Part shown: piece by piece, positions 9,284-39,702 of the stretch
How the letters are laid out: each line of letters starts with the position of its first letter
Numbering within the stretch: position 1 is the first letter of the stretch
Origin: a virus
Taxonomy: Duplodnaviria; Caudoviricetes
IMG/VR virus record: IMGVR_UViG_3300021091_000011
Length of the DNA stretch: 64,000 bases
Reading direction: 5' to 3' (one strand)
Notes under the pieces: generated by a model
Database searches by the model: none
What the model was told of the DNA's origin: nothing
Seen by the model: only the letters and a program-made list of their open reading frames with translations
Translations under genes and position numbers: made by a program

Positions 9284-9623
9284 CGGCGGTGACGCCAATC
9301 GGTTCGACACGGTTAACCTGTTGGTCGAAATCAAGTTACGCATTTCGGACGGCGCAATCTGGACTTCGCACAGGCCCGCTACGCCGGGCGATGCGAGCCG
9401 ACTTGAGCAATGGCCTTCGGGCGGTCTGGTGCAAACCGCCCACGCGCTGCTCATTGAAGCCCTGCGACGTGAAGCCTACACGATGGCAATCACGAAATTG
9501 TCGCAAGGGCATGAAAAGATAACGCCGAAAGAACTACAAAATGCGTTGACCGTGGTGGTTCAACGGTTCGTAGATCAGTTTAGCCAAGGCGCTGTTCAAG
9601 ACGCCTTGAGCAAAATCAATTAG
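9270..9623 (+). CDS. Hypothetical protein
   Basis: ORF overlapping the end of the previous gene; ATG at 9270 chosen as the likely start. Confidence 0.6.
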   Translation: MPISDGGDANRFDTVNLLVEIKLRISDGAIWTSHRPATPGDASRLEQWPSGGLVQTAHALLIEALRREAYTMAITKLSQGHEKITPKELQNALTVVVQRFVDQFSQGAVQDALSKIN

Positions 9624-10185
9624 CGGATCGCCATTGGTTCTGGTGCTCGCGTGAGCAAAAGAACACGCCGAGTTTGTTTCCGGCGATTTCAGACGGCTTA
9701 CGCTTCAAAGGCGTACTGCAAATCGCGCAAGAAACGCCGCTCGTCGTGAGCGGCTTTGGCCTTACCGCGTGCTGTTCTTGATGCTCGCGTGAGCAAAAGA
9801 ACACGCCCGTCTTACTCTTCGCCACGTCCGAAGGCTTGCGGTAAAGGTCCACACCGCAAACGCCGCAGTTTACGAGCGACGCACCGCGTCTCTTTTCAGA
9901 CGAGGTTTCCACAACCTCGACCTCAATTGTCGGCTCGGGGATCGGCGCGGGTCGTGCCGTAGCCTTTATCTCCGCGAGATCCGCATACGCTCGCTCGATT
10001 GCGAGTTTGTGCGATTCCGCGTCAGGCACACTTGTCACTAAACGCATAGGCGTATCCGGCCTTTTCTCTGGCCTCGTCGAACGGCAACCTGCATACCAAC
10101 ACGCAGGGCTATTTGCGGGCAGACGAACCGTAGACAAGTGATTCAAGCAAACCCACGTTTGCTCGTTGAGCCATTTCGCTTTCAA
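9616..10185 (-). CDS. Zinc-finger repeat protein (homing-endonuclease-type DNA-binding fingers, no nuclease domain)
   Basis: Two repeats CGVCGVDLYRKPSDVAKSKTGVFFCSREHQ and CAICSTPLKRKPSEIAGNKLGVFFCSREHQ, plus an N-terminal Cys cluster. Confidence 0.7.
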   Translation of the reverse strand: MKAKWLNEQTWVCLNHLSTVRLPANSPACWYAGCRSTRPEKRPDTPMRLVTSVPDAESHKLAIERAYADLAEIKATARPAPIPEPTIEVEVVETSSEKRRGASLVNCGVCGVDLYRKPSDVAKSKTGVFFCSREHQEQHAVRPKPLTTSGVSCAICSTPLKRKPSEIAGNKLGVFFCSREHQNQWRSAN

Positions 10186-13980: not shown

Positions 13981-14042
13981 GCGTTAACAACGCTATCAAA
14001 GCCCATGAGCAGCAATAACCTGATTTTTACAGGCATGGGCAC

Positions 14043-14699
14043 ATGAACAAGATTTCTTCTCAAGACCGAAGCGCGCTGATTAAATTAGCCGCAAGTCTGC
14101 CGCTCGGCTCTGCCGAGCGCAGGGTGATCCTCGCCGGAATCGGATACCGTTGGCTACCCGAGAACATTCGCGGGACATCGCCAAATGTCCCTTCTGAAAA
14201 CACGGACCTCGAAATCTGGACCTATGAAGTCGCCGGAAAGCCCTACGCCATCGCGTATCAGGGCAAGTCTAGCAAGCCGCTGTTTTACTCGTTGTTCCGA
14301 AGTGAAGAACAACGCCGGAACACGATTCAAAATGCAATCAATAGCCGCAAGTCGGCTATTGAAAGCAAAGCGTTGCGACGCAAAGAGCGTAGTGAGTATC
14401 AGCACACGCTCAAAGTGGGCGACATCCTCTACTCTAGTTGGGGATACGACCAAACCAACGTCGACTTCTACGAAGTCGTAGGCGTCAGCGGCAAAGCCGT
14501 CGCCATTCGTGAGATCGAACAGCGCGTGGTCGAAGGCAATGACTTTACAGAGAGGGTCGCCCCCATGCCGCGAAAGTATATCGGCCCCGTGCTAAAGAAA
14601 ATCCCGCGCGATAACTTCGTGCGCCTGAATAGTTTTTCAATTGCTCGGCTTTGGGACGGCAAGCCGAAGACGCAATCCGGCCCATACGGAGGCCACTAA
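14043..14699 (+). CDS. Leader-tagged protein with a common phage domain (SWGYDQTNVDFYEV)
   Basis: Starts MNKISSQDRSALIKLAASLPLGSAERRVILAG; C-terminal GDILYSSWGYDQTNVDFYEVV. Confidence 0.8.
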   Translation: MNKISSQDRSALIKLAASLPLGSAERRVILAGIGYRWLPENIRGTSPNVPSENTDLEIWTYEVAGKPYAIAYQGKSSKPLFYSLFRSEEQRRNTIQNAINSRKSAIESKALRRKERSEYQHTLKVGDILYSSWGYDQTNVDFYEVVGVSGKAVAIREIEQRVVEGNDFTERVAPMPRKYIGPVLKKIPRDNFVRLNSFSIARLWDGKPKTQSGPYGGH

Positions 14700-14748
14700 G
14701 TCCTTTTACTTAGCCTATCACGCCAACCGTAGGCAGGAGACCGATTAC

Positions 14749-15126
14749 ATGAACAAGATTTCTTCGCAAGACCGAAGCGCGCTGATCAAGTTGGCATCAA
14801 GTCTGCCCGCAGGCGACGAAACCCGTCGCGCGATTCTCGCAGGCTTGACCAAACTCGCCGCCCCCTACAAGCACGACAGCACCACCAGCGGTGGTAAGCG
14901 TTGCCGCAATCAATCCTGCGGCGGCGTCGGCGCACCGGGCAAAGGTTTATCCGAGTACGACCTGCTCGCAAACTACGGCGATCACGTCGGCACCGACCAC
15001 GATCCCCAAAAGAATATGGCGGGCTATATGCGTTGGTGGCGTGAAAACCAAGGTCAACACAAAGACCGCACCGTGAGCCCCACGGGTGCAGGCAACGAGA
15101 CTTTCAATCCTCAAAAGAAGAAGTAA
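14749..15126 (+). CDS. Leader-tagged small protein
   Basis: GCAGGAG RBS; MNKISSQDRSALIKLASSLPAGDETRRAILAGLTKLAA followed by an unrelated ~90-aa domain. Confidence 0.75.
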   Translation: MNKISSQDRSALIKLASSLPAGDETRRAILAGLTKLAAPYKHDSTTSGGKRCRNQSCGGVGAPGKGLSEYDLLANYGDHVGTDHDPQKNMAGYMRWWRENQGQHKDRTVSPTGAGNETFNPQKKK

Positions 15127-15269
15127 GTAAGTCTCCCCCCCTAGCCCTTAGAAAAGCCCTCTCGCTCGCGCAAGAGGGGCTTTTTTTATGCCCAAAAAGC
15201 GTATGATCACGCTATGCCTAGCAACACCGTCAGACTGATTCTCGGCGATAGCCTTGTCAAACTCAAAGA
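15061..15269. repeat. 209/210-bp direct repeat, copy 1
   Basis: Near-identical to 16599-16808; contains the 3' end of the 14749 gene, a terminator and the first 19 codons of the methyltransferase. Confidence 0.92.
15152..15187 (+). terminator. Rho-independent terminator
   Basis: AGCCCTCT-loop-AGAGGGGCT followed by T7. Confidence 0.8.
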
Positions 15270-15303
15270 TTTCTTAATCCGGCTATACCAATCTAACGCT
15301 TAG
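15214..15303 (+). pseudogene. Truncated start of the methyltransferase N-half
   Basis: MPSNTVRLILGDSLVKLKD is identical to the 16753 protein, then diverges and stops. Confidence 0.8.
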
Positions 15304-15325
15304 ATTATCTTGAAGGTGTATAGAC

Positions 15326-16441
15326 ATGAGCATGATTTCGCGGGTTGCGCAGAGATTCTTGCAGGCAGACGCAGTCAAAATTCATTGGTGGTTTCTTGAC
15401 GCGCATGAGGACCCGACCGTCAAACGTGCCGCAGAACGGCTATGGGGTTCCGTCGGTTCCGGGCTGGCTGAGATTGCCCCCATAAATGCGAGACTGCGGG
15501 CAATGAAACCCGAGGACGCGCACACGCCCAACGGTTTTCAGACGGTGCGCGCCGACGTGAGTCTCGTTACAAGTCCGCAAGTAGAGGGCGTCGCTTTGCA
15601 CTTGGATTTTTCTTTGGACGGCCGGACGGTCCTGTTCAACTCCAAGTTGAGAGTCAATCACCCGAAGTTTGCGGCTTTGCATGGTAAGAAAGCAACGCCG
15701 GCCAAGATTCTGTCAATTCTCTTTGCGGACTTCACGCAAAAGAAAGCCGAGTCCAATGCGTTTCAAGACGAACTCGACGCGGAATATGCACGGGTTCGGG
15801 CAAACTTTCAGACGCAAGCCGAGGACTTCGCCAAGTTTCTAGCCTTCCAGATTCCCACACTTCGGTCCAACGTCCCGGCGATTACCGGGAGTGTCAAGTC
15901 CGTCACGGCTTCCGAGAATGGCTTTTCGGTCGTGTCGGAGTTCAAGACCGCCACGGGCAAGCCTTATCAGATAGGGTGTGACGTCCGAAACGGAACGTTG
16001 CAAATCACACGTTCTGACGGTAAGCCCGGGTCTAAGTTCTCGATAGACTCCGGGGACACACGTTCAGTCGGCAACGCCGTCCATCATGTTTTGAGTGTGG
16101 CCCGTGGCATTGCCAGTAGTGAGAGTCAGGCGTCGGACAAGGTGACGGCTCTGATTCAAGCCACGCGGACGGAAAAGGGCGGGCGAAACCGTAAGGTTTC
16201 GTTTATTCCTGGGAAGACCCCGCGTTGGGACGTTCGACCGGACACGCCGAAGTCTTTGGACCATTACGGTCCTGACGGTTGGGACGAAGACGCGTGGACG
16301 GAAGAATACGCGGAGCCGATTGAGACGGCGGTGCTCGCCGAGTTAGACGCCGCTTTTGGACGCGGTATGTTCCACATCGACGTAGAAGAGAACGGTGATT
16401 TCACCGTTTACGCGACTCCGGCTGGTGCCCGACTGTTCTAG
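15326..16441 (+). CDS. Hypothetical protein with an N-terminal RVAQRFLQA tag, lying between the 209-bp direct repeats
   Basis: 371-aa ORF starting MSMISRVAQRFLQAD. Confidence 0.75.
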   Translation: MSMISRVAQRFLQADAVKIHWWFLDAHEDPTVKRAAERLWGSVGSGLAEIAPINARLRAMKPEDAHTPNGFQTVRADVSLVTSPQVEGVALHLDFSLDGRTVLFNSKLRVNHPKFAALHGKKATPAKILSILFADFTQKKAESNAFQDELDAEYARVRANFQTQAEDFAKFLAFQIPTLRSNVPAITGSVKSVTASENGFSVVSEFKTATGKPYQIGCDVRNGTLQITRSDGKPGSKFSIDSGDTRSVGNAVHHVLSVARGIASSESQASDKVTALIQATRTEKGGRNRKVSFIPGKTPRWDVRPDTPKSLDHYGPDGWDEDAWTEEYAEPIETAVLAELDAAFGRGMFHIDVEENGDFTVYATPAGARLF

Positions 16442-16598
16442 TCGACGAGCTTCTTGACGAGAGCCTCGATGCGGGCCGACAAATGGGTCCGCACGATTTC
16501 GTCCGTGGCCTTACGTCCCGAATCAAGAAATCCGTCGGGAGTATTTGAGACGAATCGAACGTCTTAATAACGCTCAGGCGGCGAGCGAGGCGGTCAAA

Positions 16599-16808
16599 AA
16601 AGACCGCACCGTGAGCCCCACGGGTGCAGGCAACGAGACTTTCAATCCTCAAAAGAAGAAGTAAGTAAGTCTCCCCCCCTAGCCCTTAGAAAAGCCCCTC
16701 TCGCTCGCGCAAGAGGGGCTTTTTTTATGCCCAAAAAGCGTATGATCACGCTATGCCTAGCAACACCGTTAGACTGATTCTCGGCGATAGCCTAGTCAAA
16801 CTCAAAGA
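16599..16808. repeat. 209/210-bp direct repeat, copy 2
   Basis: Matches 15061-15269 with a few substitutions and one extra C in the terminator stem. Confidence 0.92.
16689..16726 (+). terminator. Rho-independent terminator (duplicate)
   Basis: AGCCCCTCT-loop-AGAGGGGCT followed by a T-run. Confidence 0.8.
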
Positions 16809-17406
16809 CCTAGCGCCAAACTCAGTAGACGCCGTAGTTTCAGACCCACCCTATGAATTAACCGCTAACAAAAAAGGCGGCTCAGGGGTTGCCAGCATCA
16901 ATCTTGAAAGTCCATACGGACGTTCACGGATCGGAACGGGCAACGGCGGCGGCTTTATGGGTATGAAATGGGATTCGACCGGAATCGCCTTTTCACCCGA
17001 ACTTTGGGGCGAATGCTTTAGGATTCTAAAACCTAACGGCGTTATCAAAGCCTTTTCAGGCACGAGAACTTTTCACCGAATGACCCAAGCCCTGAAAAAA
17101 TCAGGATTCGTAGACTTTGAAATTCACGCTTGGACTTACGGCTCAGGCTTCCCGAAGTCTATGGACGTGAGCAAGCAGATCGACAAGGCGGCGGGCGCGG
17201 AGCGGGAAGTGGTGGGGCGTGTGGCAGGCATGGGTAAGCAAAACCCTGAATGGAACGGCACCGCACAAGGACGCGCTGAAAACTCGTTCAAGTCGGAATA
17301 TGATGCAACCGCACCCGCCACCGATGCCGCTCGGCAATGGTCCGGGTGGGGCACCGCTCTAAAGCCCGCTTGGGAACCAATCATCGTCGCAAGAAAGCCA
17401 ATATGA
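16753..17406 (+). CDS. N4/N6 DNA methyltransferase, N-terminal part (motif IV DPPY; no SAM-binding motif I)
   Basis: LILGDS, VDAVVSDPPY, FMGMKWD, ECFRILKPNG, WTYGSGFPKS, TALKPAWEPIIVARKPI. Confidence 0.88.
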   Translation: MPSNTVRLILGDSLVKLKDLAPNSVDAVVSDPPYELTANKKGGSGVASINLESPYGRSRIGTGNGGGFMGMKWDSTGIAFSPELWGECFRILKPNGVIKAFSGTRTFHRMTQALKKSGFVDFEIHAWTYGSGFPKSMDVSKQIDKAAGAEREVVGRVAGMGKQNPEWNGTAQGRAENSFKSEYDATAPATDAARQWSGWGTALKPAWEPIIVARKPI

Positions 17407-17489
17407 TCATCCACGTCTTGAGAAAGCCGTTGTCAGACACGGTCGCTCAAAACGCCTTGGCTCATGGAGCCGGAGCAAGGTGCCATTGA
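17403..17489 (+). pseudogene. Truncated copy of the methyltransferase second part
   Basis: MIIHVLRKPLSDTVAQNALAHGAGA, then interrupted at about 17478 by the inverted endonuclease remnant. Confidence 0.8.
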
Positions 17490-18074
17490 ATTCTAAAGCC
17501 GCCCCCATTTCAGGCAGGAAATAGTCTAGTACGGTCCCATAGCGACCATTTGGCCCCCGTAGATAATACTGATGTACGCAGGGCACACCTAGACGTTGAA
17601 GCACATCACCAACTTTCATTTCTAAGCCCGAGACGCGGGGTATACGGCCTTCCGCAATCGCCAAAGAAGTTGTCTGAGATAACTTGGCCTTGGTTTCTTC
17701 CGTGTGCTGATAGTTGCCCGCCGCCTTTCGGCGAACATTCATCTCACGTCGACGTTCGGCCTGCGCTTGTCGGGTAGCCTCTGGAATGATATAGGGCGTT
17801 TCTACTTTCCGACCTACCAAGCCCATCGAGCGAGCCTGATAGGAGCATTTGCGGGAGCATAAAAACGCCGTGGTCTTCGACCGAGCCACCACCGAAGGTG
17901 GTCTGGTTACAGGAGTGCCGCAAACTCCACAAGATTTTGCGATTGAGAGGGTGTTGCTCTGCCCCACAGGGCGTGAGAGCATTTACGAGAACAAGTCGTC
18001 TGCCGCCCATGTAATAAGCGGGTAGGGTCTGCTTGGTATAGGTCCCCGCAAACGGGGCAAAGTCGTTCAATCAC
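17478..18074 (-). pseudogene. Homing endonuclease remnant (Zn fingers + NUMOD3-like + Vsr/DUF559-like domain), frameshifted and truncated
   Basis: GTG at 18074 gives IERLCPVCGDLYQADPTRLLHGRQTTCSRKCS. A different frame carries CGVCG...FLCSRKCS, HTEETKAKLS and SGLEMKV...VLDYFLPEMGAALEFNGT, cut before the expected WH. Confidence 0.75.
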
Positions 18075-18123
18075 GAGGTCACCACCTATGACAAATGAGG
18101 GAAACGGTCGTAGGGAGGGTCAG

Positions 18124-18926
18124 ATGATTCGCTTGGTTTTAGGGGACTGCATCGAGAAAATGCAGGATATCCCCCCAGGAACCATTGATGCGATCATCAG
18201 CGACCCTCCCTACGGCTGAATATATCAGGACTAGAATTCATGGGGAAAGAATGGGACGCACCTTGGAAGTCAAACGGATGGCAAGCCGGAGGCGGGTTCT
18301 CTAAACCTGGTATTGGCGAACGCCATACCGCATGGCCTAGTTTCACCGCGACTTCTAAGTTCGGTGCCACAAATCCAACTTGTGAGACTTGTGGGGGACG
18401 TGCGCGAGGTAAAAAACGCTGCGGTTGCGCTGAACCACAATGGAAAGCCATCGGCAAACGCCGCCACGTCGAAAATGAAGGCTTACCGTCTGACGTTACG
18501 AGTTCAGGGATGAGTAATCACCTTCGCCACTTTCAAGATTGGTGCGAACTTTGGTCAAGCCAATGCTTTAGAATCCTAAAACCTAACGGCGTTATCAAAG
18601 CCTTTTCGGGGACACGAACTTTTCACCGTATGACCCAAGCCCTGAAAAAATCAGGATTCGTAGACTTTGAAATTCACGCTTGGACTTACGGATCAGGCTT
18701 CCCGAAGTCTATGGACGTGAGCAAGCAGATCGACAAGCAAGCGGGCGCAGAACGAACGGAAGTCATAAAGCCGTTCAATGACGAAAACGGTTGGAACGCG
18801 AACGGAACCACGGGCGACCACGCCTATACCGCACCCGCCACCGACGCCGCCCGTCAATGGTCCGGTTACGGCACCGCTCTAAAGCCCGCTTGGGAGCCGA
18901 TCATCGTCGCAAGAAAGCCAATATGA
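18124..18926 (+). CDS. Second methyltransferase N-terminal part, interrupted by a 14-nt insert just after DPPYG
   Basis: GGAGG RBS; MIRLVLGDCIEKMQDIPPGTIDAIISDPPYG, TGA at 18217; resumes LEFMGKEWD at 18231 and continues to ...EPIIVARKPI. Confidence 0.8.
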
Positions 18927-19381
18927 TCGTTCACGTCTTACGAAAGCCATTGTCAGGCACGGTCGCTCAAAACGCTTTGGCTCATGGAGCCGGAGCATTG
19001 AACATCGACGGATGCCGGATTGCTGTTTCTAGCGAAGAAAGAAAAACCTACGACGCCAATATGCGTGCGCTTGAACGGTACGCAGACGGCAGAGAAAAAA
19101 TCGGGCAGTTTGAGGGTGGCTGGAAAGCAGACCCGTCCCGTGTCAAAAACGTGGGCGCTCGCTGGCCCGCTAATCTCGTCCATGATGGAAGCGAGCACGC
19201 CCTAGATAATTTTCCCGAGGCGGGAAATGGATGGAAGAAAAATTACGGTGATGAAGTCTATGCCGTTGAAGGCCGTCATTATTCCGGAGGTTCTTTTGGC
19301 GGTGGTGGTTTTCTAGGGGGTAGCACTTATACGGACTCAGGCTCGGCATCTCGATTCTTTCAACAAGTGATAATCAAATGA
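18923..19381 (+). CDS. Methyltransferase second part, paralog A
   Basis: MIVHVLRKPLSGTVAQNALAHGAGALNIDGCRI...RWPANLVHDGS...GSASRFFQQV; ATGA overlap with the N-half. Confidence 0.8.
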   Translation: MIVHVLRKPLSGTVAQNALAHGAGALNIDGCRIAVSSEERKTYDANMRALERYADGREKIGQFEGGWKADPSRVKNVGARWPANLVHDGSEHALDNFPEAGNGWKKNYGDEVYAVEGRHYSGGSFGGGGFLGGSTYTDSGSASRFFQQVIIK

Positions 19382-19806
19382 TCGTTCACGTCCTGAGAAA
19401 GCCATTGTCAGGCACCGTCGCTCAAAACGCCCTGCAACACGGCTGCGGGGCATTGAACATCGACGGATGCAGGGTTAGTTTGTCTTCCGATGAAAATCCA
19501 GACAAGTTGAGCGCGAGAAGCGGTGGGAACCGTGGTTTTGCTGAAGATTATGTAGGCGGGGTAACACGAAATTTACCTGCTGGTTGGGATTGCAGCAAGG
19601 GGCGTTGGCCCGCGAATCTCGTCCATGATGGAAGCGACGAAGTTGTAGAGACGTTTCCTGAGAGCAACCGCTGGTTCAACGCACCGAGAAATAGCGATGG
19701 AAAAGGCAAAGACGGCCAGATTTTTGATACTCACCGTGGCAGCGGGATGGGTGGCGGCGACTCCGGTTCGGCATCTCGATTCTTTCAGCAAGTAACCCTC
19801 AAATAG
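19378..19806 (+). CDS. Methyltransferase second part, paralog B
   Basis: Same conserved blocks as paralog A with different variable segments; ATGA overlap. Confidence 0.8.
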   Translation: MIVHVLRKPLSGTVAQNALQHGCGALNIDGCRVSLSSDENPDKLSARSGGNRGFAEDYVGGVTRNLPAGWDCSKGRWPANLVHDGSDEVVETFPESNRWFNAPRNSDGKGKDGQIFDTHRGSGMGGGDSGSASRFFQQVTLK

Positions 19807-20111
19807 CAAACCCCCAAAAAGCCCCCCTTACTAATAACCCCCTCGCCCACAGACGAAACCTTACTAGACTAGATGCGATAGGCGTGCGTGGGTGGGGCTA
19901 GTGTTTAGGCATTAGCAAACCAATTCCAAGCCGTCCGTTTTTCAATGCGGTTTCAATATGGCTTTCGGGGTGGGTCCCGAGGCTTCGAAAGGTTTTACGC
20001 GCGGTTCTGGACACTCGTGTTTAGACCTCGACCAGACCGCGAAGTTGAAAAATCAGGTAGGGTTGCGATGAAACATTCGTTGCGGCGCTAGGGGATTTCA
20101 GCGGTCGTGGT

Positions 20112-20630
20112 ATGATAGTGGTTATGAAGAAGAATCCTTTGATAGCCGCGAAGATTAAGTCTTTGGTGGGTGTGTTGAAGGGTGTGGGCGACAAGGCTAC
20201 GCGCGTGGCTTGTCTGCTTGGCGTGTTGTTGGGGGAGACGAGCGCGGAGGGTTTAGTCTCTTTGCGTGGTGAGGCTTCCCTTCTTCGCATACGTCGGGTG
20301 TATGGGAAGGTCTATGGTGCGGAGTTGGCCGACCATTTGGGTCGGTTGCTTCCGGAGGGCGACGTCCCTTGTCTATTGGGGCGTGGCGGCAAGGCGTTAT
20401 CCCGAGTGACGTTGTGGCGTCGCGTGGGGAAGATCGGCTTGGTGGGTCTGCGTCGTTTATCGTTGGCGTTTCGCAAGTTCTTTATGGAGCATTGCGAGAC
20501 GCGGGAAGAGGCGCGGGATTGTGCGTCGGGGACGGGCTTTGTGTTGGGCACGCCGACGTCTTGGGTTCGTGTGTACGCTTGGTGGCCTGACGCACCGGAT
20601 TGGTGTGGGCGGGTGAGGCGCTTTATATAA
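20112..20630 (+). CDS. Hypothetical protein (possible HTH)
   Basis: 172-aa ORF in G/T-rich sequence; LSRVTLWRRVGKIG is HTH-like. Confidence 0.45.
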   Translation: MIVVMKKNPLIAAKIKSLVGVLKGVGDKATRVACLLGVLLGETSAEGLVSLRGEASLLRIRRVYGKVYGAELADHLGRLLPEGDVPCLLGRGGKALSRVTLWRRVGKIGLVGLRRLSLAFRKFFMEHCETREEARDCASGTGFVLGTPTSWVRVYAWWPDAPDWCGRVRRFI

Positions 20631-20674
20631 GCGTGTTTGCGTCGTCGAAGCCGCTTGGAATGGGTGAGGGAGAT

Positions 20675-20953
20675 TCACGGGGCTTTGCTTCCGTGGCCGT
20701 AACCCTGACCGTGACCGCTGCCGTAACTGCCACCGTAGCCGTAACCGTGGCCGCTTCCGTCGCTGAAGCAGTCACCGTAGGCGCTTCTGTGCCAACGAGA
20801 ACGCTGCGGCGGCGGCGGCGACAACTCAAAGGCCGTGGTCAGCGGGACTTGAGCGAGTGCCTTACCCTTGGCGTCAATCAGACTAATCGAGCCGTCGAGA
20901 TTAGGCTTGACGTCAGACGCCGCTTGAAACGGTGGTGGGAGGCTTTTGATCAT
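20675..20953 (-). CDS. LPxPF-domain paralog with a Gly/Tyr-rich tail
   Basis: SLPPPFQAASDVKPNLDGSISLIDAKGKALAQVPLTTAFEL plus GSGHGYGYGG. Confidence 0.8.
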   Translation of the reverse strand: MIKSLPPPFQAASDVKPNLDGSISLIDAKGKALAQVPLTTAFELSPPPPQRSRWHRSAYGDCFSDGSGHGYGYGGSYGSGHGQGYGHGSKAP

Positions 20954-21348
20954 CTATATACGCCGTCGATTGAGGCTATTCCCCCATGGGTTTGGATCAG
21001 TTGTCTGAGGATTTCATGCGGCACATAGGCGTAGACGGTGTCCGTCGGGTCGTCTGAGTTTTCAGCGTAGGTTTGGATCAAGTCGTCAGGTTGATTGGGG
21101 AAGCCTAACTCATAATGAGTCCACGGCCCATGGTCCTTGCGGGGTCGGCAGTAGTGCGTTGCGCTGGCCCTTACGGAGACGGAGAACCCATCTTTGCAAG
21201 TGACCCGACCTTGATATAGGCCCAAATCTAAGGCCGTGTGCAGCGCAACTTGAGCGAGCGTCTTACCCTTGGCGTCGATCAGATCGAGTGAGCCCTGAGC
21301 GTTAGGCTTGATGCTCGTCGCGTCTTGAAACGGTGGGGGCAGTTTCAC
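20950..21348 (-). CDS. LPxPF-domain paralog fused to a different globular phage domain
   Basis: MKLPPPFQDATSIKPN...ALDL plus CKDGFSVSVRASATHYCRPR...ELGFP...YAE...PTDTVYAYVP. Confidence 0.8.
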   Translation of the reverse strand: MKLPPPFQDATSIKPNAQGSLDLIDAKGKTLAQVALHTALDLGLYQGRVTCKDGFSVSVRASATHYCRPRKDHGPWTHYELGFPNQPDDLIQTYAENSDDPTDTVYAYVPHEILRQLIQTHGGIASIDGVYR

Positions 21349-21575
21349 GGGCTTCTCCCACCGTCACCTTCGGACTGCTCATCACCGTAACCGCGTCCGT
21401 CACCGTAGCCACGTCCGTCACCGTAACCGTGGCCGTAGTCTTTTGTGCTCAACTCAAAGGCCGTGGTCAACGGGATTCGCGCCAACGGCTTGCCCTTGGC
21501 ATCGGTCAGGCTGATCGTCCCGTCGGGATTAGGCTTGAGGTTAGTCGCGGACTGAAACGGATGTGGTAGGTTCAT
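21345..21575 (-). CDS. LPxPF-domain paralog with a Gly-rich tail
   Basis: MNLPHPFQSATNLKPNPDG...TAFEL plus (GYGDGR)n. Confidence 0.8.
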   Translation of the reverse strand: MNLPHPFQSATNLKPNPDGTISLTDAKGKPLARIPLTTAFELSTKDYGHGYGDGRGYGDGRGYGDEQSEGDGGRSP

Positions 21576-21925
21576 TTGGGAACCTTGCCTCCGGAGCCGT
21601 TGCCGATTCCAAATGGGTCGTATCCGGCACCTGAGTTGCCATCAGCGAAGCGGCATTTAGCACCTAAAGCGTCGCTGTAGCCGTAGTTCAGCGAAGCGAA
21701 CAAAATGCCGCCGCCGAAAGGCATGATTTCAGATATGTTGGTCTTGTCGAGTAGCGAGTAGGCCGTGTTCAACGGCACGCGGGCAATCGGGAGGTCATTT
21801 TCGGTGGTCAGGTCGATTGTCCCATCGGCGTTTACGCGAATCCAGCGCACGTCTTGAAACGGACGTGGCAACGGCGACCGACTATGTGCAGGGTAGTGGA
21901 CGTTGTCTGAGATGTAACCGTTCAT
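21572..21925 (-). CDS. Divergent LPxPF-domain paralog
   Basis: SPLPRPFQDVRWIRVNADGTIDLTTENDLPIARVPLNTAYSL. Confidence 0.75.
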   Translation of the reverse strand: MNGYISDNVHYPAHSRSPLPRPFQDVRWIRVNADGTIDLTTENDLPIARVPLNTAYSLLDKTNISEIMPFGGGILFASLNYGYSDALGAKCRFADGNSGAGYDPFGIGNGSGGKVPK

Positions 21926-22248
21926 GGGGACTTGCCTTTGCCGCTTATGTAGCCTTGGCCGTAAGCGACTCCGATTCCGAATCCTTCGCCGTAGCCGATT
22001 CCGAATCCATCACCCGAACCGTCTCCGTGATCTTTGCCGTAAGTGCCGTAACCGAAATCTCCATCGCCGCTGCCATCGTTGCTTGGCTTGAAGTCGCACT
22101 CATCCTTGTCACCGAGCGGCGACAACTCAAAAGCCGTGGGCATCGAGATTCTTGCGAGCGGCTTCCCGCTCGCGTCGATTAGGTCGATTGAGCCGTCGAG
22201 ATTAGGTTTGAGACCCGTCGCGGACTGAAACGGTGGGGGCAGTTTCAC
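21922..22248 (-). CDS. LPxPF-domain paralog with a Gly/Asp-rich tail
   Basis: MKLPPPFQSATGLKPNLDG...TAFEL plus GSGDGDFGYG repeats. Confidence 0.8.
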   Translation of the reverse strand: MKLPPPFQSATGLKPNLDGSIDLIDASGKPLARISMPTAFELSPLGDKDECDFKPSNDGSGDGDFGYGTYGKDHGDGSGDGFGIGYGEGFGIGVAYGQGYISGKGKSP

Positions 22249-22604
22249 GGGCTTCTCCCATTAGCCCTATGGGAACGCTTGCCGTAACCGTCACCGTCAC
22301 CGTGACCGTCACCGTAACAACCGATACCGCGACCGTGACCGTCACCGCGACCGTTGCCGCGACCGTCACCGTAACAACCGTAGCCGTAACCGTCACCGTA
22401 GCCGAGGCCGTAACCGTCGCTGTAGCCGAGGCCGTAACCGTGACCGTCACCGGAACCGTAGCCTGCGGCCTCGGGACTTAGATCAAAAGCCGTGGTCAAC
22501 GGGATTCGCGCCAACGGCTTGCCCTTGGCATCGGTCAGGCTAACCGTCCCGTCGGCATTGGGCTTGATGCTAGATGCGTCTTGGAACGGATGGGGCAGTT
22601 TCAC
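22245..22604 (-). CDS. LPxPF-domain paralog with a long GYGDG tail
   Basis: GTG start at 22604 after AGGAG: MKLPHPFQDASSIKPNADG...TAFDL plus (GYG/GDG)n. Confidence 0.8.
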   Translation of the reverse strand: MKLPHPFQDASSIKPNADGTVSLTDAKGKPLARIPLTTAFDLSPEAAGYGSGDGHGYGLGYSDGYGLGYGDGYGYGCYGDGRGNGRGDGHGRGIGCYGDGHGDGDGYGKRSHRANGRSP

Positions 22605-22621
22605 GGAGTTCAGTCTCCTGA

Positions 22622-23098
22622 TCAATCATCAATGTCTTCGGAGATGTCGAATGCCTCGATGATCTCGTCAGGCAGGTCTCCGTGTGAGGTCACGGTATAC
22701 TGTTGGTCCTCGCCGTGCCCAAAGATTCCGGCGAAAGCCATGCCAGGTTCATAGTAGAGCCCTCTGACGTCGAAACCGAGCTTGATTAGGTGTTGGTAGA
22801 ACGCGATTGGGGGCGACCAGGCCGTGAAAAACTTAGCCGTAATCTCTCCGTGGACGGAGGCAGTCACGGAACCCTCATCTATGTCCCATTTCGTGCCCCA
22901 ATTGTCACAGCACCAATCATAACTGTCCCTAGCACCGTACTTAGCGAGGTTTTGCTCGGCAGACTGACCCTCCAATTCAGGGGGGCATGGCAGGAACTCG
23001 TGGAACAGTTCGTTGCGACTTAGGGCTTTCTCGGCGCGGGTTAGTTCGTCCACGGACTCGTGCTTCAGCGTCAGGTGGTTCATACACCAATTGGGCAT
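22622..23098 (-). CDS. DUF1281/YubB ferredoxin-like phage protein
   Basis: MPNWCMNHL...YDWCCDNWGTKWD...FFTAWSPP...YYEPGMAFAG. Confidence 0.8.
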   Translation of the reverse strand: MPNWCMNHLTLKHESVDELTRAEKALSRNELFHEFLPCPPELEGQSAEQNLAKYGARDSYDWCCDNWGTKWDIDEGSVTASVHGEITAKFFTAWSPPIAFYQHLIKLGFDVRGLYYEPGMAFAGIFGHGEDQQYTVTSHGDLPDEIIEAFDISEDIDD

Positions 23099-23149
23099 GG
23101 TCTAACTCTTCTTTCTATGGGCTGATCTTGGTTGTCACAAACACTCGGG

Positions 23150-23587
23150 CTATCTGTCGAGGCCAGGTTCGAGTGGGGCAAATTCACGTTCTCCCCCCAC
23201 CGTCAACGTCACCGTAACCGACACCGGAACCACCGGAACCACCGTGACAGTCGCCGTAACCGTCGCCCTTCTCCCACCGTCACCGTTGGGCAGCCCGTCA
23301 CCGTAACAACCGTAGCCGTAACCGTCACCGTAGCCGAGGCCGTAACCGTAGCCGTAGCTGTCGCTGTAACCGTCGCCGTCGCCGTCGCCGGAACCGTCGC
23401 CGCAACCGTAGTCGGAACCGTAGCCGTAACCGTAGCCTGCGGCCTCGGGACTTAGCTCAAAGGCCGTGGTCAACGGGATTCGCGCCAACGGCTTGCCCTT
23501 GGCATCGGTCAGGCTAACCGTCCCGTCGGCATCGGGCTTGAGGCCCGTCGCCGCTCGAAACGGATGAGGGAGGTTTAGGCGTCCCAC
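23150..23587 (-). CDS. LPxPF-domain paralog whose 3' end is a frameshifted fusion
   Basis: LNLPHPFRAATGLKPDADG...TAFEL plus a GYG tail; after GDGGR the frame reads Val/Thr while the Gly-rich reading continues in another frame. Confidence 0.65.
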   Translation of the reverse strand: MGRLNLPHPFRAATGLKPDADGTVSLTDAKGKPLARIPLTTAFELSPEAAGYGYGYGSDYGCGDGSGDGDGDGYSDSYGYGYGLGYGDGYGYGCYGDGLPNGDGGRRATVTATVTVVPVVPVSVTVTLTVGGEREFAPLEPGLDR

Positions 23588-23907
23588 AAGCCGGACTCCC
23601 ACGCCGCCGCCGCTTGAGGCGTGCAAGCCAGCAGCCCCGTTATGTCCGTGTATTGCGCCATAGGCGCGGGAGGCGAAATCCTCGACCCCTGCAAAGGCCC
23701 CGTGTACGCAAGGCCGACGAACCCCCGCACTTCGGCGGGCCAATAGACCACCACTCTGCAGTCCTTGAGCGTGATGGTCGACGGGTTCTTGGTCGTGGTC
23801 CCGTCCGGACTCACGACCTCAGTAGCGAGGTTGTACGAGACAACCTCACCGAAGAAAACGCCGCGATGGGCGGTCGTGACGACGACCTTCTGACCGACAA
23901 AGTTCAT
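23575..23907 (-). CDS. DUF6948-like protein
   Basis: GQKVVVTTAHRGVFFG...ITLKDCRVVVYW...GFVGLAYTGP...SRIS...LLACTPQAAAAW. Confidence 0.7.
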   Translation of the reverse strand: MNFVGQKVVVTTAHRGVFFGEVVSYNLATEVVSPDGTTTKNPSTITLKDCRVVVYWPAEVRGFVGLAYTGPLQGSRISPPAPMAQYTDITGLLACTPQAAAAWESGLWDA

Positions 23908-23928
23908 TTGCTACTCCTGCTACGAATT

Positions 23929-24159
23929 TCAAGTTCCTTCGACGTAACCTTGCTTGGTCAGGTCATCGATCCAAGCGCCGAAAATCGCGCGAGTGACCGA
24001 ACCGTAAAGCGGCTGACCATCCGACCAGCCTGCGGCCTCGACCGTGTGGTTCTCACCTGCGACGGGCATCACCACGCCTCGCCATGACTTTCGATACTCG
24101 CAAGTCACGAGAACGGCCAAGACCTTCCCATGAAGTGCGATATGTGCGACGTGCTTCAT
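23929..24159 (-). CDS. Hypothetical protein
   Basis: GGAG RBS; first gene after motif copy 5. Confidence 0.65.
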   Translation of the reverse strand: MKHVAHIALHGKVLAVLVTCEYRKSWRGVVMPVAGENHTVEAAGWSDGQPLYGSVTRAIFGAWIDDLTKQGYVEGT

Positions 24160-29377: not shown

Positions 29378-29935
29378 ATGAGCCTTAGTATCTCACTTAA
29401 CTCTAGTGCTGCGAAGTCCGGTATCTCTGGACCGCTTTGGTTTGCGTTTAGTCGAGAATTCGGCTTGGCTTTGGCTTCATGGTTGAACGCGAGTGCCTAC
29501 GGCTATTCGCCTCTTGGTATTGCGCCTCCGGCTCCGTCTCCGATTTCAGTAACGGGCTCGGGTCGATTGCAGACGTTTCGTGTGAGGTCACCTTCTGGCG
29601 TCAGTTCGGGACCTTTGGGCGTGAACACGGAGCGTGCGATTCTGGATGCGTTGGTTTTCGTGCCAATGGTTTTGAAGCCTCTAGGTTCTGGTTCGGGCTC
29701 TGGTGTGAGTCCTATATTGCCTTCGGGTAGTTTCCGTTCGAGTCTTGGTCCGTTGGGTGGTTATCTGGTCGCGCGTGTGGGGACGTTATCTGGTCCTGTT
29801 GGCAAGTCTTGGCTTTTGGATTTCGGTACTCGTCTGGAATCAGGTATGTCGTTTGTGGGTACTGCGACGGTGATTTCTCAAGTGCCTGTCCCCGTCCCCG
29901 TGATCGTATCTGTGGGGGTGATATGTCCTTTGTGA
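29378..29935 (+). CDS. Hypothetical (probably structural) protein
   Basis: 185-aa Gly/Ser/Pro-rich ORF heading the structural operon. Confidence 0.55.
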   Translation: MSLSISLNSSAAKSGISGPLWFAFSREFGLALASWLNASAYGYSPLGIAPPAPSPISVTGSGRLQTFRVRSPSGVSSGPLGVNTERAILDALVFVPMVLKPLGSGSGSGVSPILPSGSFRSSLGPLGGYLVARVGTLSGPVGKSWLLDFGTRLESGMSFVGTATVISQVPVPVPVIVSVGVICPL

Positions 29936-39654: not shown

Positions 39655-39702
39655 TGCGGCTATCTAGTTGCGCTTGCGTAGCATTTACAAGAGGCCCATC
39701 GT

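What the first reader, a model, noticed from the sequence alone, without database searches (positions are those of the whole stretch)
16753..19806. Split, tandemly amplified methyltransferase lacking its SAM-binding motif
Seen: two N-halves ending ...EPIIVARKPI, each ATGA-coupled to a second part starting MI(I/V)HVLRKPL. There are two intact second parts, one stub, and a stub of the N-half at 15214. Conserved blocks are near-identical in DNA while the segments between them are unrelated, including a CETC...CGC insert. Every second part stops at SASRFFQQV, and no DPFxGSG motif I occurs anywhere in the window. Established: beta-class N4/N6 methyltransferases have motif IV, a variable region, then motif I in one chain. 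Inference: a multi-subunit methyltransferase with exchangeable parts whose third subunit is encoded elsewhere, or a non-catalytic derivative.
Basis: partly seen in the sequence, partly recalled or inferred. Interest (0 to 1): 0.6.

Follow-up and report, generated by a model that had tools for sequence, protein, structure and literature searches.

The report
Spare parts of three-piece phage methyltransferase
A large uncultured phage encodes a DNA-methylating enzyme as separate genes, and this stretch holds extra catalytic halves and swappable, probably DNA-reading, modules whose cofactor-binding partner lies about 110 kb away, which may let one enzyme mark many DNA sequences.

Summary
The stretch carries two DPPY catalytic halves, two intact middle modules and one truncated one, all ATGA-coupled. 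A 20-codon stub of the catalytic half sits at 15214. No motif I occurs anywhere in the 64 kb.

The second catalytic half is broken by a unique 14-nt insert after DPPYG. The truncated module abuts a truncated homing-endonuclease-like gene on the other strand.

This is not decay or an artefact. At least 69 free-standing modules with native starts and stops exist in metagenomes. Related phages carry operons of modules, then a SAM-binding scaffold, then catalytic halves. Natural fusions join module to scaffold, scaffold to catalytic half, and three modules to one scaffold. Matched variable segments are under strong purifying selection (11 synonymous against 1 nonsynonymous change). The two variable segments of a module reassort independently.

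The scan's sequence index places a scaffold-like gene and two more modules 110,619 nt upstream in the same genome, but I could not read that DNA. The scan has already reported this system, there and in other genomes.

Best reading: an auxiliary cassette locus of a multi-subunit, probably multispecific, beta-class DNA methyltransferase. No activity has been tested, and assembly and target reading are inferred.

The parts
15061..15269 (+). Direct repeat, copy 1. It holds the 3' tail of the upstream gene, a GC-rich hairpin followed by a T run (intrinsic-terminator-like), and the first 19 codons of an N-half.
   Evidence: It matches 16599-16808 at 91-100% identity, with 99 nt identical. The sequence was read.
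15214..15303 (+). Stub of the catalytic N-half (MPSNTVRLILGDSLVKLKD, then unrelated sequence and a stop).
   Evidence: blastp to N-half A residues 1-20 gives 95% identity. Translation.
16599..16808 (+). Direct repeat, copy 2, running into the start of N-half A. The two copies bracket ORF 15326-16441.
16753..17406 (+). N-half A: an intact catalytic half of a beta-class amino-methyltransferase (motif IV SDPPY through EPIIVARKPI).
   Evidence: Pfam PF01555 scores 25.3 bits over profile positions 1-90. It is 47.7% identical to residues 1-183 of Mycobacterium phage BaboJay gp99. dN/dS against the L003 N-halves is 0.17-0.18.
17403..17489 (+). Truncated middle module. The first 25 codons are homologous; homology ends at 17477.
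   Evidence: The ATGA overlap with N-half A is seen.
17478..18074 (-). Remnant of a homing-endonuclease-like gene (ORFs 17407-17982 and 17907-18074). It has zinc-ribbon motifs, a NUMOD3-like stretch and a DUF559/Vsr-like nuclease core cut off after ALEFNGT at the junction with the truncated module.
   Evidence: Translation. The nearest ESM Atlas clusters are viral NUMOD3 plus DUF559 proteins, score 0.93, which is lead-level evidence only. Pfam, PHROG and NCBIfam gave no hit.
18088..18219 (+). N-half B, 5' piece (likely start MIRLVLGD at 18124). It ends SDPPYG followed by a stop.
18217..18230 (+). A 14-nt insert (TGAATATATCAGGA) that interrupts N-half B. It supplies a TGA stop and an AGGA nine nt before the ATG at 18240.
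   Evidence: Six relatives read DPPYGLEFMGK(E/D)WD without interruption. The 15-mer occurs exactly once in the window.
18231..18926 (+). N-half B, 3' piece (ORF from the ATG at 18240). It carries a Cys-x2-Cys...Cys-x-Cys insert after motif IV.
   Evidence: 61% identical to the N part of the single-chain 528-aa methyltransferase of L072, which has the same insert. PF01555 scores 24.9 bits.
18923..19381 (+). Middle module 1 (152 aa), free-standing and ATGA-coupled.
   Evidence: Its V2 segment matches that of L003 6001-6450 with dN/dS 0.15.
19378..19806 (+). Middle module 2 (142 aa), free-standing and ATGA-coupled.
   Evidence: Its V1 matches L003 module 5 (dN/dS 0.17). Its V2 matches L003 module 3 with 11 synonymous and 1 nonsynonymous differences.

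Best explanation
The stretch is an auxiliary cassette locus of a three-component beta-class (amino, probably N6-adenine) DNA methyltransferase of a phage of about 204 kb.

The enzyme is encoded as three kinds of separate polypeptides:
1. A catalytic half, carrying motif IV DPPY through strand EPIIVARKP.
2. A small middle module in the position of the target-recognition domain. Three conserved blocks (MIVHVLRKPL..NIDGCR, GRWPANLVHDGS, GSASRFFQQV) frame two hypervariable segments, V1 and V2.
3. A scaffold carrying motif X (HPTVKP), the SAM-binding motif I (DPFLGSG) and an eroded copy of the catalytic half.

This locus supplies one intact catalytic half (A), a second that is interrupted (B), and two intact modules. 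The scaffold is encoded in the phage's primary operon about 110 kb upstream.

Inferred mechanism: a catalytic half and the scaffold together rebuild the Rossmann-fold active site, as the N and C parts do in single-chain relatives. A module docks through its conserved blocks and presents V1 and V2 to DNA. Alternative modules would then give alternative target sequences, so the phage could methylate its DNA at several motifs and escape several host restriction systems.

The locus is evolving by tandem duplication, gene conversion between paralogues and mobile-element damage.

Shown here: the anatomy, the conservation of the split form, the pairwise fusions, the purifying selection and the independent reassortment of V1 and V2. 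Inferred: physical assembly, SAM use, DNA reading by V1/V2 and the anti-restriction role.
For: Position in the enzyme
- Full-length relatives run N-half, then module, then SRFFY.AKA..ER..HPTVKP..DPFxGSG in one chain.
- An AlphaFold model of one such relative (L005:571-2055) matches CcrM, M.BceJIV and M.RsrI (Foldseek E 4.5e-13 to 4e-8, target TM 0.5-0.74). The module therefore sits where beta-class enzymes carry the TRD.
- In that model the core and the three conserved module blocks have pLDDT 74-96, while V1 and V2 have 43-57.

The split is conserved
- 437 relatives of 78-249 aa were found.
- Of the best 120, 93 lack motif I, and 69 of those have a native start (M/V...RKP) and a stop within 10 residues of RFF.
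- 8,101 library representatives contain the module at E<=1e-3.

Operons in relatives
- L003 has six modules, then a 611-aa scaffold (intein in HP|TVKP, DPFLGSG present), then two N-halves, then one module, all overlapping.
- L004 and L070 have the same order: module, scaffold, N-half.

Natural fusions
- Module-scaffold: P0122, P0124, P0148.
- Scaffold-N-half: P0123.
- Three modules plus scaffold: P0266.
- N-half plus two modules plus C part: P0286.

Selection
- N-half A against the L003 N-halves: dN/dS 0.17-0.18.
- Matched V segments: dN/dS 0.02-0.17.

Reassortment
- 90 free-standing modules fall into 37 V1 types and 47 V2 types, in 71 combinations.
- The V1 type of module 2 occurs with 11 different V2 types.

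Same-genome scaffold
- The index stretch 110,619 nt upstream shares 38 of 60 words with scaffold P0241. It shares all words with modules P0047 and P0069, which one search lists with a longest contig of 204,357 bp, the same value it gives for the window's own module P0001.

Gene conversion
- nt 256-420 of N-half A are 89-100% identical to N-half B but only 58-91% to L003. nt 1-250 show the reverse pattern.
Against: - No activity, complex or methylation motif has been measured.
Whether its scaffold is intact is therefore unknown. Two protein searches with the L003 scaffold listed no hit on a 204,357-bp contig.
- The locus shows damage: a truncated module, a stub of the N-half and a stop in N-half B.
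- The scaffold carries its own eroded copy of the motif V-VI region (40% identity over 70 residues). It is therefore unclear how the separate catalytic half packs against it.
- The AlphaFold model of a module-scaffold fusion was poor: mean pLDDT 61, with the module part at 30-60.
- V1 and V2 being DNA readers rests on position and variability only.
Confidence: 0.65

Rival explanations
1. This is a decaying duplicate. The locus is a redundant copy of parts of the primary operon that is being lost. The still-open reading frames are recent remnants and contribute nothing to the enzyme.
For: - A truncated module and a stub of the N-half are present.
- A 14-nt insert gives a stop after DPPYG in N-half B.
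- A truncated endonuclease-like gene lies in the middle of the locus.
- No scaffold gene occurs within 64 kb.
Against: - N-half A and both modules are full length with ATGA coupling preserved.
- dN/dS is 0.02-0.18 on matched segments against L003, although this averages over a long history.
- L003 also places two N-halves and a module after its scaffold, so N-N-module groups are a normal part of the system.
Confidence: 0.15
2. The middle modules are not DNA readers. They are alternative regulatory or adaptor lids of the enzyme, for example tuning activity, tethering it to other phage or host proteins, or evading host inhibitors. Their diversity would then reflect an arms race at a protein-protein interface.
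For: - V1 and V2 are Gly-rich and have low confidence in both models.
- Structure searches with the two models returned only methyltransferase-core matches. The module fold was not searched on its own.
Against: - The module occupies the exact position of the TRD between motif VIII and motif X in single-chain relatives.
- Arrays and tandem fusions of several modules on one scaffold parallel the tandem TRDs of multispecific phage C5-methyltransferases (cited in PMC7544214).
Confidence: 0.12
3. These are silent donor cassettes. The locus is mainly a reservoir that exchanges segments with the primary operon by gene conversion, and is not expressed itself.
For: - 98-100% identity tracts between paralogous N-halves sit beside unrelated segments.
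- V1 and V2 reassort widely.
- The truncated module's residues LSDTVAQNALAHGAGA equal the start of P0047 in the upstream cluster.
Against: - Every cassette keeps its own start codon and stop-start overlap, which silent cassettes do not need.
- Purifying selection acts on whole modules.
Confidence: 0.06
4. The split is an assembly or sequencing artefact of an ordinary single-chain methyltransferase.
For: None, beyond the single 14-nt insert in N-half B, which could in principle be an error.
Against: The same stop-start junctions recur in dozens of independent metagenome contigs and several loci.
Confidence: 0.02

Closest known systems
Single-chain phage beta-class amino-methyltransferases with a large middle insert (Pfam PF01555), e.g. 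Mycobacterium phage BaboJay gp99, Cylindrospermopsis phage Cr-LKS3 g59, the L072 528-aa protein. Solved cores: CcrM 6PBD, M.BceJIV 8URK/9C3S, M.RsrI 1NW5.
   Same: They share motif IV DPPY, the EPI..ARKP strand, the NIDGCR/GRWPAN/SRFF framework, then HPTVKP and DPFxGSG. N-half A is 47.7% identical. The fold of a single-chain relative matches CcrM and M.BceJIV.
   Different: Here the chain is cut into separately translated genes at the two borders of the middle module, and the modules are multiplied. The motif X/I part sits on a scaffold that also carries an eroded copy of the catalytic half. Gene order in relatives is permuted to module, scaffold, N-half.
Multispecific C5-cytosine methyltransferases of Bacillus phages (SPR, phi3T, rho11s; Trautner and co-workers, cited as refs 86-87 in PMC7544214)
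   Same: One catalytic core serves several interchangeable target-recognising modules arranged in tandem, in a phage, presumably against several restriction systems. P0266 has three modules in one chain.
   Different: The enzyme class differs (C5, motif PC, single chain). Here it is an amino-methyltransferase whose modules are mostly free-standing proteins. That each module confers its own specificity is proven for the Bacillus enzymes and untested here.
Type I restriction-modification methyltransferase M2S1 (HsdM/HsdS)
   Same: There is a separate specificity subunit with two variable regions between conserved blocks. These reassort by recombination, and the genes are translationally coupled (PMC3510504 abstract; V1/V2 reassortment).
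   Different: HsdM is a complete gamma-class catalytic subunit and HsdS is a different, larger fold. No HsdR or HsdM was found here, and the catalytic domain itself is split.
Heteromeric beta-class (MT-A70) complexes: ciliate MTA1-MTA9-p1-p2 and METTL3-METTL14
   Same: An active subunit pairs with a partner whose motif IV is eroded. In the ciliate complex, DNA binding is delegated to separate subunits (PMC7544214). The scaffold here has DDPLAF, STPDTF or similar in place of DPPY.
   Different: In those complexes each MTase subunit is a complete fold with its own SAM pocket or remnant. Here motif IV and motif I lie on different polypeptides. Structural similarity to MTA1 and METTL3 is only marginal (E about 3e-3).
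Genes in pieces created by free-standing homing endonucleases in phages (e.g. the Aeromonas phage Aeh1 nrdA split by mobE; recalled from memory, not checked here)
   Same: An endonuclease-like gene (nearest clusters NUMOD3 plus DUF559) lies inside the array at a conserved block of a module.
   Different: The regular splits of this system are stop-start overlaps without any endonuclease gene. The endonuclease-like gene here is itself truncated and lies on the opposite strand.

Membership tests
Beta-class N6-adenine/N4-cytosine DNA methyltransferase (Pfam PF01555 N6_N4_Mtase) | Catalytic motif IV (D/S)PP(Y/F/W) near the N-terminus | tested here: met
   SDPPY is present in N-half A (16843) and in N-half B (18202).
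Beta-class N6-adenine/N4-cytosine DNA methyltransferase (Pfam PF01555 N6_N4_Mtase) | SAM-binding motif I (FxGxG, here DPFxGSG) and motif X (HPTxKP) in the same protein | tested here: not met
   Both are absent from every ORF and every frame of the window. In relatives they sit on a separate scaffold protein. In the same genome a scaffold-like sequence is supported only by the word index.
Beta-class N6-adenine/N4-cytosine DNA methyltransferase (Pfam PF01555 N6_N4_Mtase) | Score at or above Pfam's gathering cut-off (26.7 bits) | tested here: not met
   The N-halves score 25.3 and 24.9 bits, covering only profile positions 1-90 of 221. The modules give no hit. Scaffold P0241 scores 62.1 bits over positions 147-219.
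Beta-class N6-adenine/N4-cytosine DNA methyltransferase (Pfam PF01555 N6_N4_Mtase) | Motif order IV-VIII, TRD, X, I-III, and the Rossmann fold of solved members | tested here: met
   This is met for single-chain relatives only: alignment, and the L005 model against CcrM, M.BceJIV and M.RsrI. For the split system the order of genes is permuted, and the assembled fold was not modelled.
Beta-class N6-adenine/N4-cytosine DNA methyltransferase (Pfam PF01555 N6_N4_Mtase) | SAM-dependent methylation of DNA at a defined motif | not testable with these tools
   Needs expression and methylome sequencing.
Three-part modular phage methyltransferase (module / scaffold / catalytic half), as seen in L003, L004 and L070 and in earlier notes of this scan | Free-standing middle module with the MIVHVLRKPL start, NIDGCR, GRWPAN and SRFFQQV end | tested here: met
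   Modules 1 and 2. 69 complete free-standing relatives exist.
Three-part modular phage methyltransferase (module / scaffold / catalytic half), as seen in L003, L004 and L070 and in earlier notes of this scan | Free-standing catalytic half ending ...EPI(I/V)VARKP followed by a stop | tested here: met
   N-half A in the window; the L003 and L004 N-halves end the same way.
Three-part modular phage methyltransferase (module / scaffold / catalytic half), as seen in L003, L004 and L070 and in earlier notes of this scan | Scaffold gene (eroded N-half plus motif X plus motif I) in the same genome | tested here: inconclusive
   It is not in the window. An index stretch 110,619 nt upstream shares 38 of 60 words with P0241, but I could not read that DNA.
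Multispecific phage C5-methyltransferases | C5 catalytic motifs (PC, ENV) with tandem TRDs in one chain | tested here: not met
   The catalytic motif is DPPY and the Pfam family is N6_N4_Mtase. The analogy is functional only.
NUMOD3 / DUF559 (Vsr-like) free-standing homing endonucleases (for ORF 17407-17982, minus strand) | Match to NUMOD3 (PF07460) or DUF559 (PF04480) profiles, and a complete nuclease core | tested here: inconclusive
   No Pfam, PHROG or NCBIfam hit. The nearest Atlas clusters carry these families at score 0.93. The core appears cut after ALEFNGT.

The most novel reading that the evidence does not exclude
The phage runs a combinatorial, programmable amino-methyltransferase. 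One SAM-binding scaffold accepts any of at least two catalytic-half variants and any of at least five two-lobed reader modules. V1 and V2 would each read one half-site, as the two TRDs of HsdS do. A few short genes would then yield ten or more specificities, and recombination at the three conserved blocks would create new ones in a single step. A further possibility is that N-half B is still used: the 14-nt insert, which supplies a stop followed by AGGA nine nt before an ATG, would then be a fresh gene fission or a short translational hop rather than a lesion.
Probability: 0.3. Interest if true: 0.85.

Novelty: new variant of a known kind. Interest (0 to 1): 0.66.

Why it matters
DNA methyltransferases of this class are textbook single-chain enzymes or homodimers, whose target specificity is hard-wired into one chain. 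Here the catalytic motif, the cofactor site and the presumed reader sit on three separate proteins, with arrays of readers that shuffle their two variable halves among phages.

If this reading is right, it would be a natural plug-and-play methylation system. It would explain how large phages keep pace with many host restriction systems using very little DNA. It would also give a minimal, modular frame (modules of about 140 aa) for learning, and later engineering, sequence recognition by amino-methyltransferases.

This locus adds three points. The parts need not be linked to the scaffold. Catalytic halves also come in variants. The arrays turn over quickly through duplication, gene conversion and mobile-element damage.

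Three full-text searches found no paper describing such a split phage beta-class enzyme. That is not proof of absence. The scan itself has already reported the system in this genome and in other genomes.

Tried and rejected
- Own genome: no whole genome is held for this window.
- The one metagenome scan, with P0069, returned only distant contigs and not the window's own. The viral-contig scans also lack it.
- Two protein searches with the L003 scaffold, at near and shorter lengths, listed no scaffold on a 204,357-bp contig. The search is word-limited, so this is not evidence of absence.
- Megablast of 14000-24000 against phage genomes gave no match.
- Endonuclease-like ORF: no hit in Pfam, PHROGs, NCBIfam or by tblastn in phages. 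Only the Atlas gave a lead.
- I looked for a link between this ORF and the zinc-ribbon ORF that follows the L003 and L004 operons, found no sequence similarity, and dropped the idea.
- Fold of the scaffold-N-half fusion P0123: MAFFT placed the N-half rows on the scaffold's eroded copy instead of the true N-half. I did not submit that alignment.
- Fold of the module-scaffold fusion P0124 was too uncertain to read the module or its docking. Mean pLDDT was 61 and the best structural Z was 8.4, on the SAM half only.
- The terminator/promoter scan gave fewer sites than shuffled controls and missed the obvious hairpin plus T-run at about 16693-16728. I describe that element from the sequence only.
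- An NPPF hit on the minus strand at 54170 is followed by a stop within 12 codons. I treated it as chance.
- Three literature searches found no report of a split phage beta-class methyltransferase.


Full report
**What is in the sequence**

The features, in order along the plus strand, are:

- N-half A (16753-17406, 217 aa). It has SDPPY and ends EPIIVARKPI. Its stop overlaps, as ATGA, the start of the next ORF.
- A 28-codon ORF (17403-17489). It reads MIIHVLRKPLSDTVAQNALAHGAGA and then loses homology at 17477.
- A second N-half ending EPIIVARKPI at 18926.
- Module 1 (18923-19381, 152 aa) and module 2 (19378-19806, 142 aa). Each starts MIVHVLRKPL at an ATGA overlap and ends SASRFFQQV(I/T)(I/L)K.

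A 20-residue stub of the N-half lies at 15214. It sits inside a 210-bp direct repeat (15061-15269 against 16599-16808, 91-100% identical). The repeat brackets an unrelated 371-aa ORF.

Neither tblastn with two full-length relatives at E<=10 nor six-frame pattern searches find HPTVKP or DPFxGSG anywhere in the 64 kb.

First, N-half B is interrupted. After SDPPYG comes TGA. Six relatives read DPPYGLEFMGK(E/D)WD where the window has 14 extra bases, TGAATATATCAGGA, at 18217-18230. The 3' piece restarts at an ATG nine bases after the AGGA of the insert.

Second, the 600 bases between the truncated module and N-half B carry minus-strand ORFs with these features:
- zinc-ribbon motifs;
- a NUMOD3-like stretch;
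- a DUF559/Vsr-like core that stops at ALEFNGT, exactly where the truncated module stops.

Curated libraries give no hit for these ORFs. The nearest ESM Atlas clusters are viral NUMOD3 plus DUF559 proteins at score 0.93, which I treat as a lead only. I read this as a homing-endonuclease-type gene. It and a module were both truncated by one deletion or rearrangement.

**What the pieces are**

Pfam places both N-halves on positions 1-90 of N6_N4_Mtase, just under the cut-off (25.3 and 24.9 bits against 26.7). Phage genomes hold hundreds of relatives.

Aligned with Mycobacterium phage BaboJay gp99 and Cylindrospermopsis phage Cr-LKS3 g59, the pieces map as follows:
- The N-half covers motif IV to EPI..ARKP.
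- The module covers RKPL..NIDGCR..GRWPAN..SRFF.
- The single-chain proteins then continue with Y.AKA..ER, HPTVKP and DPFxGSG.

That last part is what the window lacks.

An AlphaFold model of a single-chain relative (L005:571-2055, 119-row alignment, mean pLDDT 71) matches CcrM, M.BceJIV, M.RsrI and M.MboIIA. The module therefore lies where beta-class enzymes carry their target-recognition domain.

In that model the catalytic core, the C part and the three conserved blocks of the module are confident (pLDDT 74-96). The two variable segments V1 and V2 are not (43-57).

**The split is real and conserved**

A search limited to 78-249 aa found 437 relatives of module 2. Of the best 120, 93 lack motif I. 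Of those 93, 69 have both a native start (mostly MIVHVLRKP) and a stop within ten residues of RFF. Another 27 are two-piece forms, with the module plus the C part in one protein.

Against 1.84 billion representatives the module is found in 8,101 proteins at E<=1e-3. Most of these are single chains, and about a fifth of the top 150 are free-standing.

The closest contig, L003 (47 kb), encodes one overlapping gene string:
- six modules;
- a 611-aa protein I call the scaffold;
- two N-halves;
- a seventh module.

The scaffold has four notable features:
- Its N-terminal region is 40% identical to the motif V-VI part of an N-half, but with DDPLAF where DPPY should be.
- It has FSYTAKAATAERE and HP|TVKP. 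The latter is interrupted by an intein carrying Hint and LAGLIDADG domains (precomputed Pfam).
- It has DPFLGSG.
- Intein-free scaffolds of 237-256 aa also exist.

L004 and L070 show the same order: module, scaffold, N-half.

**The parts belong together**

Natural fusions join the parts pairwise:
- module-scaffold: P0122, P0124, P0148;
- scaffold-N-half: P0123, 811 aa;
- three tandem modules plus a scaffold: P0266, 899 aa;
- N-half plus two modules plus the C part: P0286.

These are Rosetta-stone arguments for physical association. They also show that several modules per enzyme is a recurring design.

**Selection and mosaicism**

Nei-Gojobori estimates against L003 give the following:

| Comparison | dN/dS |
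|---|---|
| N-half A against the L003 N-halves | 0.17-0.18 |
| Whole modules | 0.24-0.32 |
| V2 of module 2 against L003 module 3 (11 synonymous, 1 nonsynonymous over 43 codons) | 0.02 |
| V1 of module 2 against L003 module 5 | 0.17 |
| V2 of module 1 against L003 module 2 | 0.15 |

The variable segments are therefore conserved as proteins once the type is matched. Module 2 combines the V1 of one L003 module with the V2 of another.

I clustered the variable segments of 90 free-standing modules at 50% identity:
- There are 37 V1 types and 47 V2 types, in 71 combinations.
- The V1 type of module 2 occurs with 11 V2 types.
- Its V2 type occurs with 5 V1 types.

The set is biased towards relatives of the query, but independent reassortment is clear.

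The N-halves are mosaic too. The first 250 nt of N-half A are 80-96% identical to the L003 N-halves and 44-64% identical to N-half B. In contrast, nt 256-420 are 89-100% identical to N-half B and only 58-91% to L003. That pattern fits gene conversion between paralogues in one genome.

The Cys-rich insert of N-half B is old. The single-chain L072 protein and five other relatives carry it.

**Where the third subunit is**

The window comes from a phage-like contig with a DNA polymerase and helicases. Its probable length is 204,357 bp, the longest contig listed for the window's own proteins. Two further modules, P0047 and P0069, are listed with the same longest-contig length, 204,357 bp, and they are not in the window.

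I could not fetch that DNA. The scan's own sequence index helps, however. One stretch of the same genome, 110,619 nt before the window, shares:
- all 31 words of P0047;
- all 44 words of P0069;
- 38 of 60 words of scaffold P0241.

An earlier report of this scan describes that stretch as a catalytic half, a scaffold and three modules. I treat the word match as a partial test of that note. The scaffold's integrity remains unchecked. The first 16 comparable residues of the truncated module equal the start of P0047, which hints at exchange between the two loci.

**How it most likely works**

In single-chain relatives the N part (strands 4-7, with DPPY) and the C part (motif X helix, strands 1-3, with the SAM loop) form one Rossmann fold, and the module hangs between them.

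The simplest reading of the split system is fragment complementation. A catalytic half packs onto the scaffold's SAM-binding half, and a module docks through its three conserved blocks and exposes V1 and V2. Different modules, and perhaps different N-half variants, would give holoenzymes with different targets. This is a multispecific anti-restriction methylase.

The idea parallels three known systems:
- the tandem TRDs of multispecific Bacillus-phage C5-methyltransferases;
- the two-TRD HsdS subunit of Type I systems;
- beta-class heteromers with an eroded-motif-IV partner and separate DNA-binding subunits (PMC7544214).

One point remains unexplained. The scaffold keeps its own eroded copy of the motif V-VI region, and each junction strand exists twice: EPIIVARKPI beside MIVHVLRKPL, and SRFFQQV beside FSYTAKA. 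The packing may therefore be pseudo-dimeric rather than simple complementation. My model of a module-scaffold fusion was too weak to decide this.

**Status of this locus**

The locus holds an intact catalytic half and two intact modules. It also holds a broken catalytic half, a truncated module, a stub of the N-half and a dead endonuclease-like gene.

I read it as an expressed auxiliary cassette locus in rapid flux (0.65). Rival readings are a decaying duplicate (0.15), non-reader lids (0.12), silent donor cassettes (0.06) and an artefact (0.02).

Whether N-half B is a pseudogene, a fresh fission or a short translational hop is open. The take-off codon GGC and the candidate landing codon GGA differ, which argues against a gene-60-type hop, and no relative shares the insert.

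**Novelty**

The enzyme class is well known. New relative to the literature I could search are the three-way split, the free-standing two-lobed module arrays, the permuted operon and the unlinked second locus. This scan already reported the same system elsewhere in this genome and in other phage genomes.

Noticed in passing
window 18217-18230: A 14-nt insert, TGAATATATCAGGA, follows DPPYG in N-half B. It brings a TGA stop, a small hairpin (CTGA-ATATA-TCAG) and an AGGA nine nt before the ATG at 18240. It is absent from six relatives. A 15-mer two mismatches away (CTGAAAAAATCAGGA) lies about 420 nt downstream in both N-halves. It could be a lesion, a new gene fission or a short hop.
   Followed up: partly
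window 17407-18074, minus strand: A truncated homing-endonuclease-like gene with zinc ribbon(s), a NUMOD3-like motif and a DUF559-like core cut at ALEFNGT. The two overlapping ORFs suggest a frameshift between two zinc-ribbon repeats. A zinc-ribbon paralogue lies at 9616-10185 (minus strand).
   Followed up: partly
window 15061-16808: A 210-bp direct repeat (99 nt identical) brackets a 371-aa ORF (15326-16441) that has no family hit. The repeat contains the last 20 codons of the upstream gene (…DRTVSPTGAGNETFNPQKKK), a hairpin plus T-run, and the first 19 codons of the N-half. This looks like a gene inserted by duplication or recombination.
   Followed up: partly
window 14043-15126: Two adjacent ORFs (14043-14699 and about 14747-15126) share their first 20 codons (MNKISSQDRSALIKLA.SLP; 61 nt at 90%) and then diverge completely. 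This is another case of shared ends with swapped bodies in this region.
   Followed up: no
window 20675-22625, minus strand: Five or six tandem small ORFs share a conserved N-terminal half (M.LP.PFQ.A...KPN.DG.I.L.DAKGK.LA..PL.TA..L) and have Gly/Tyr/Asp/His-rich tails (GYGDGHGYG repeats). No Pfam hit for the two I tested.
   Followed up: no
window 29809-45012, plus strand: Two giant ORFs of 3,281 and 1,769 aa stand back to back. The second has no PHROG hit.
   Followed up: no
L003:8189-10024: The scaffold subunit of the closest relative carries an intein (Hint plus LAGLIDADG) inserted inside the motif X sequence HP|TVKP. Intein-free versions that are 95% identical in the exteins exist (P0241). 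L004, L070, P0123 and P0132 have the intein at the same site.
   Followed up: partly
P0266 (899 aa), P0286 (893 aa), P0262 (560 aa): These are natural single chains with several modules: three modules plus a scaffold; an N-half plus two modules plus the C part; and a permuted module-C'-N-half-module-C form. They show that the family explores many permutations of the same parts.
   Followed up: partly
L001:1481-3331 (Cylindrospermopsis phage Cr-LKS3 g59): This cultured-phage single-chain enzyme has an insert of about 200 aa exactly at the N-half/module border, flanked by two copies of the KP..E....A(S/R)KP strand. This is the same strand duplication seen at the split site in the window.
   Followed up: no
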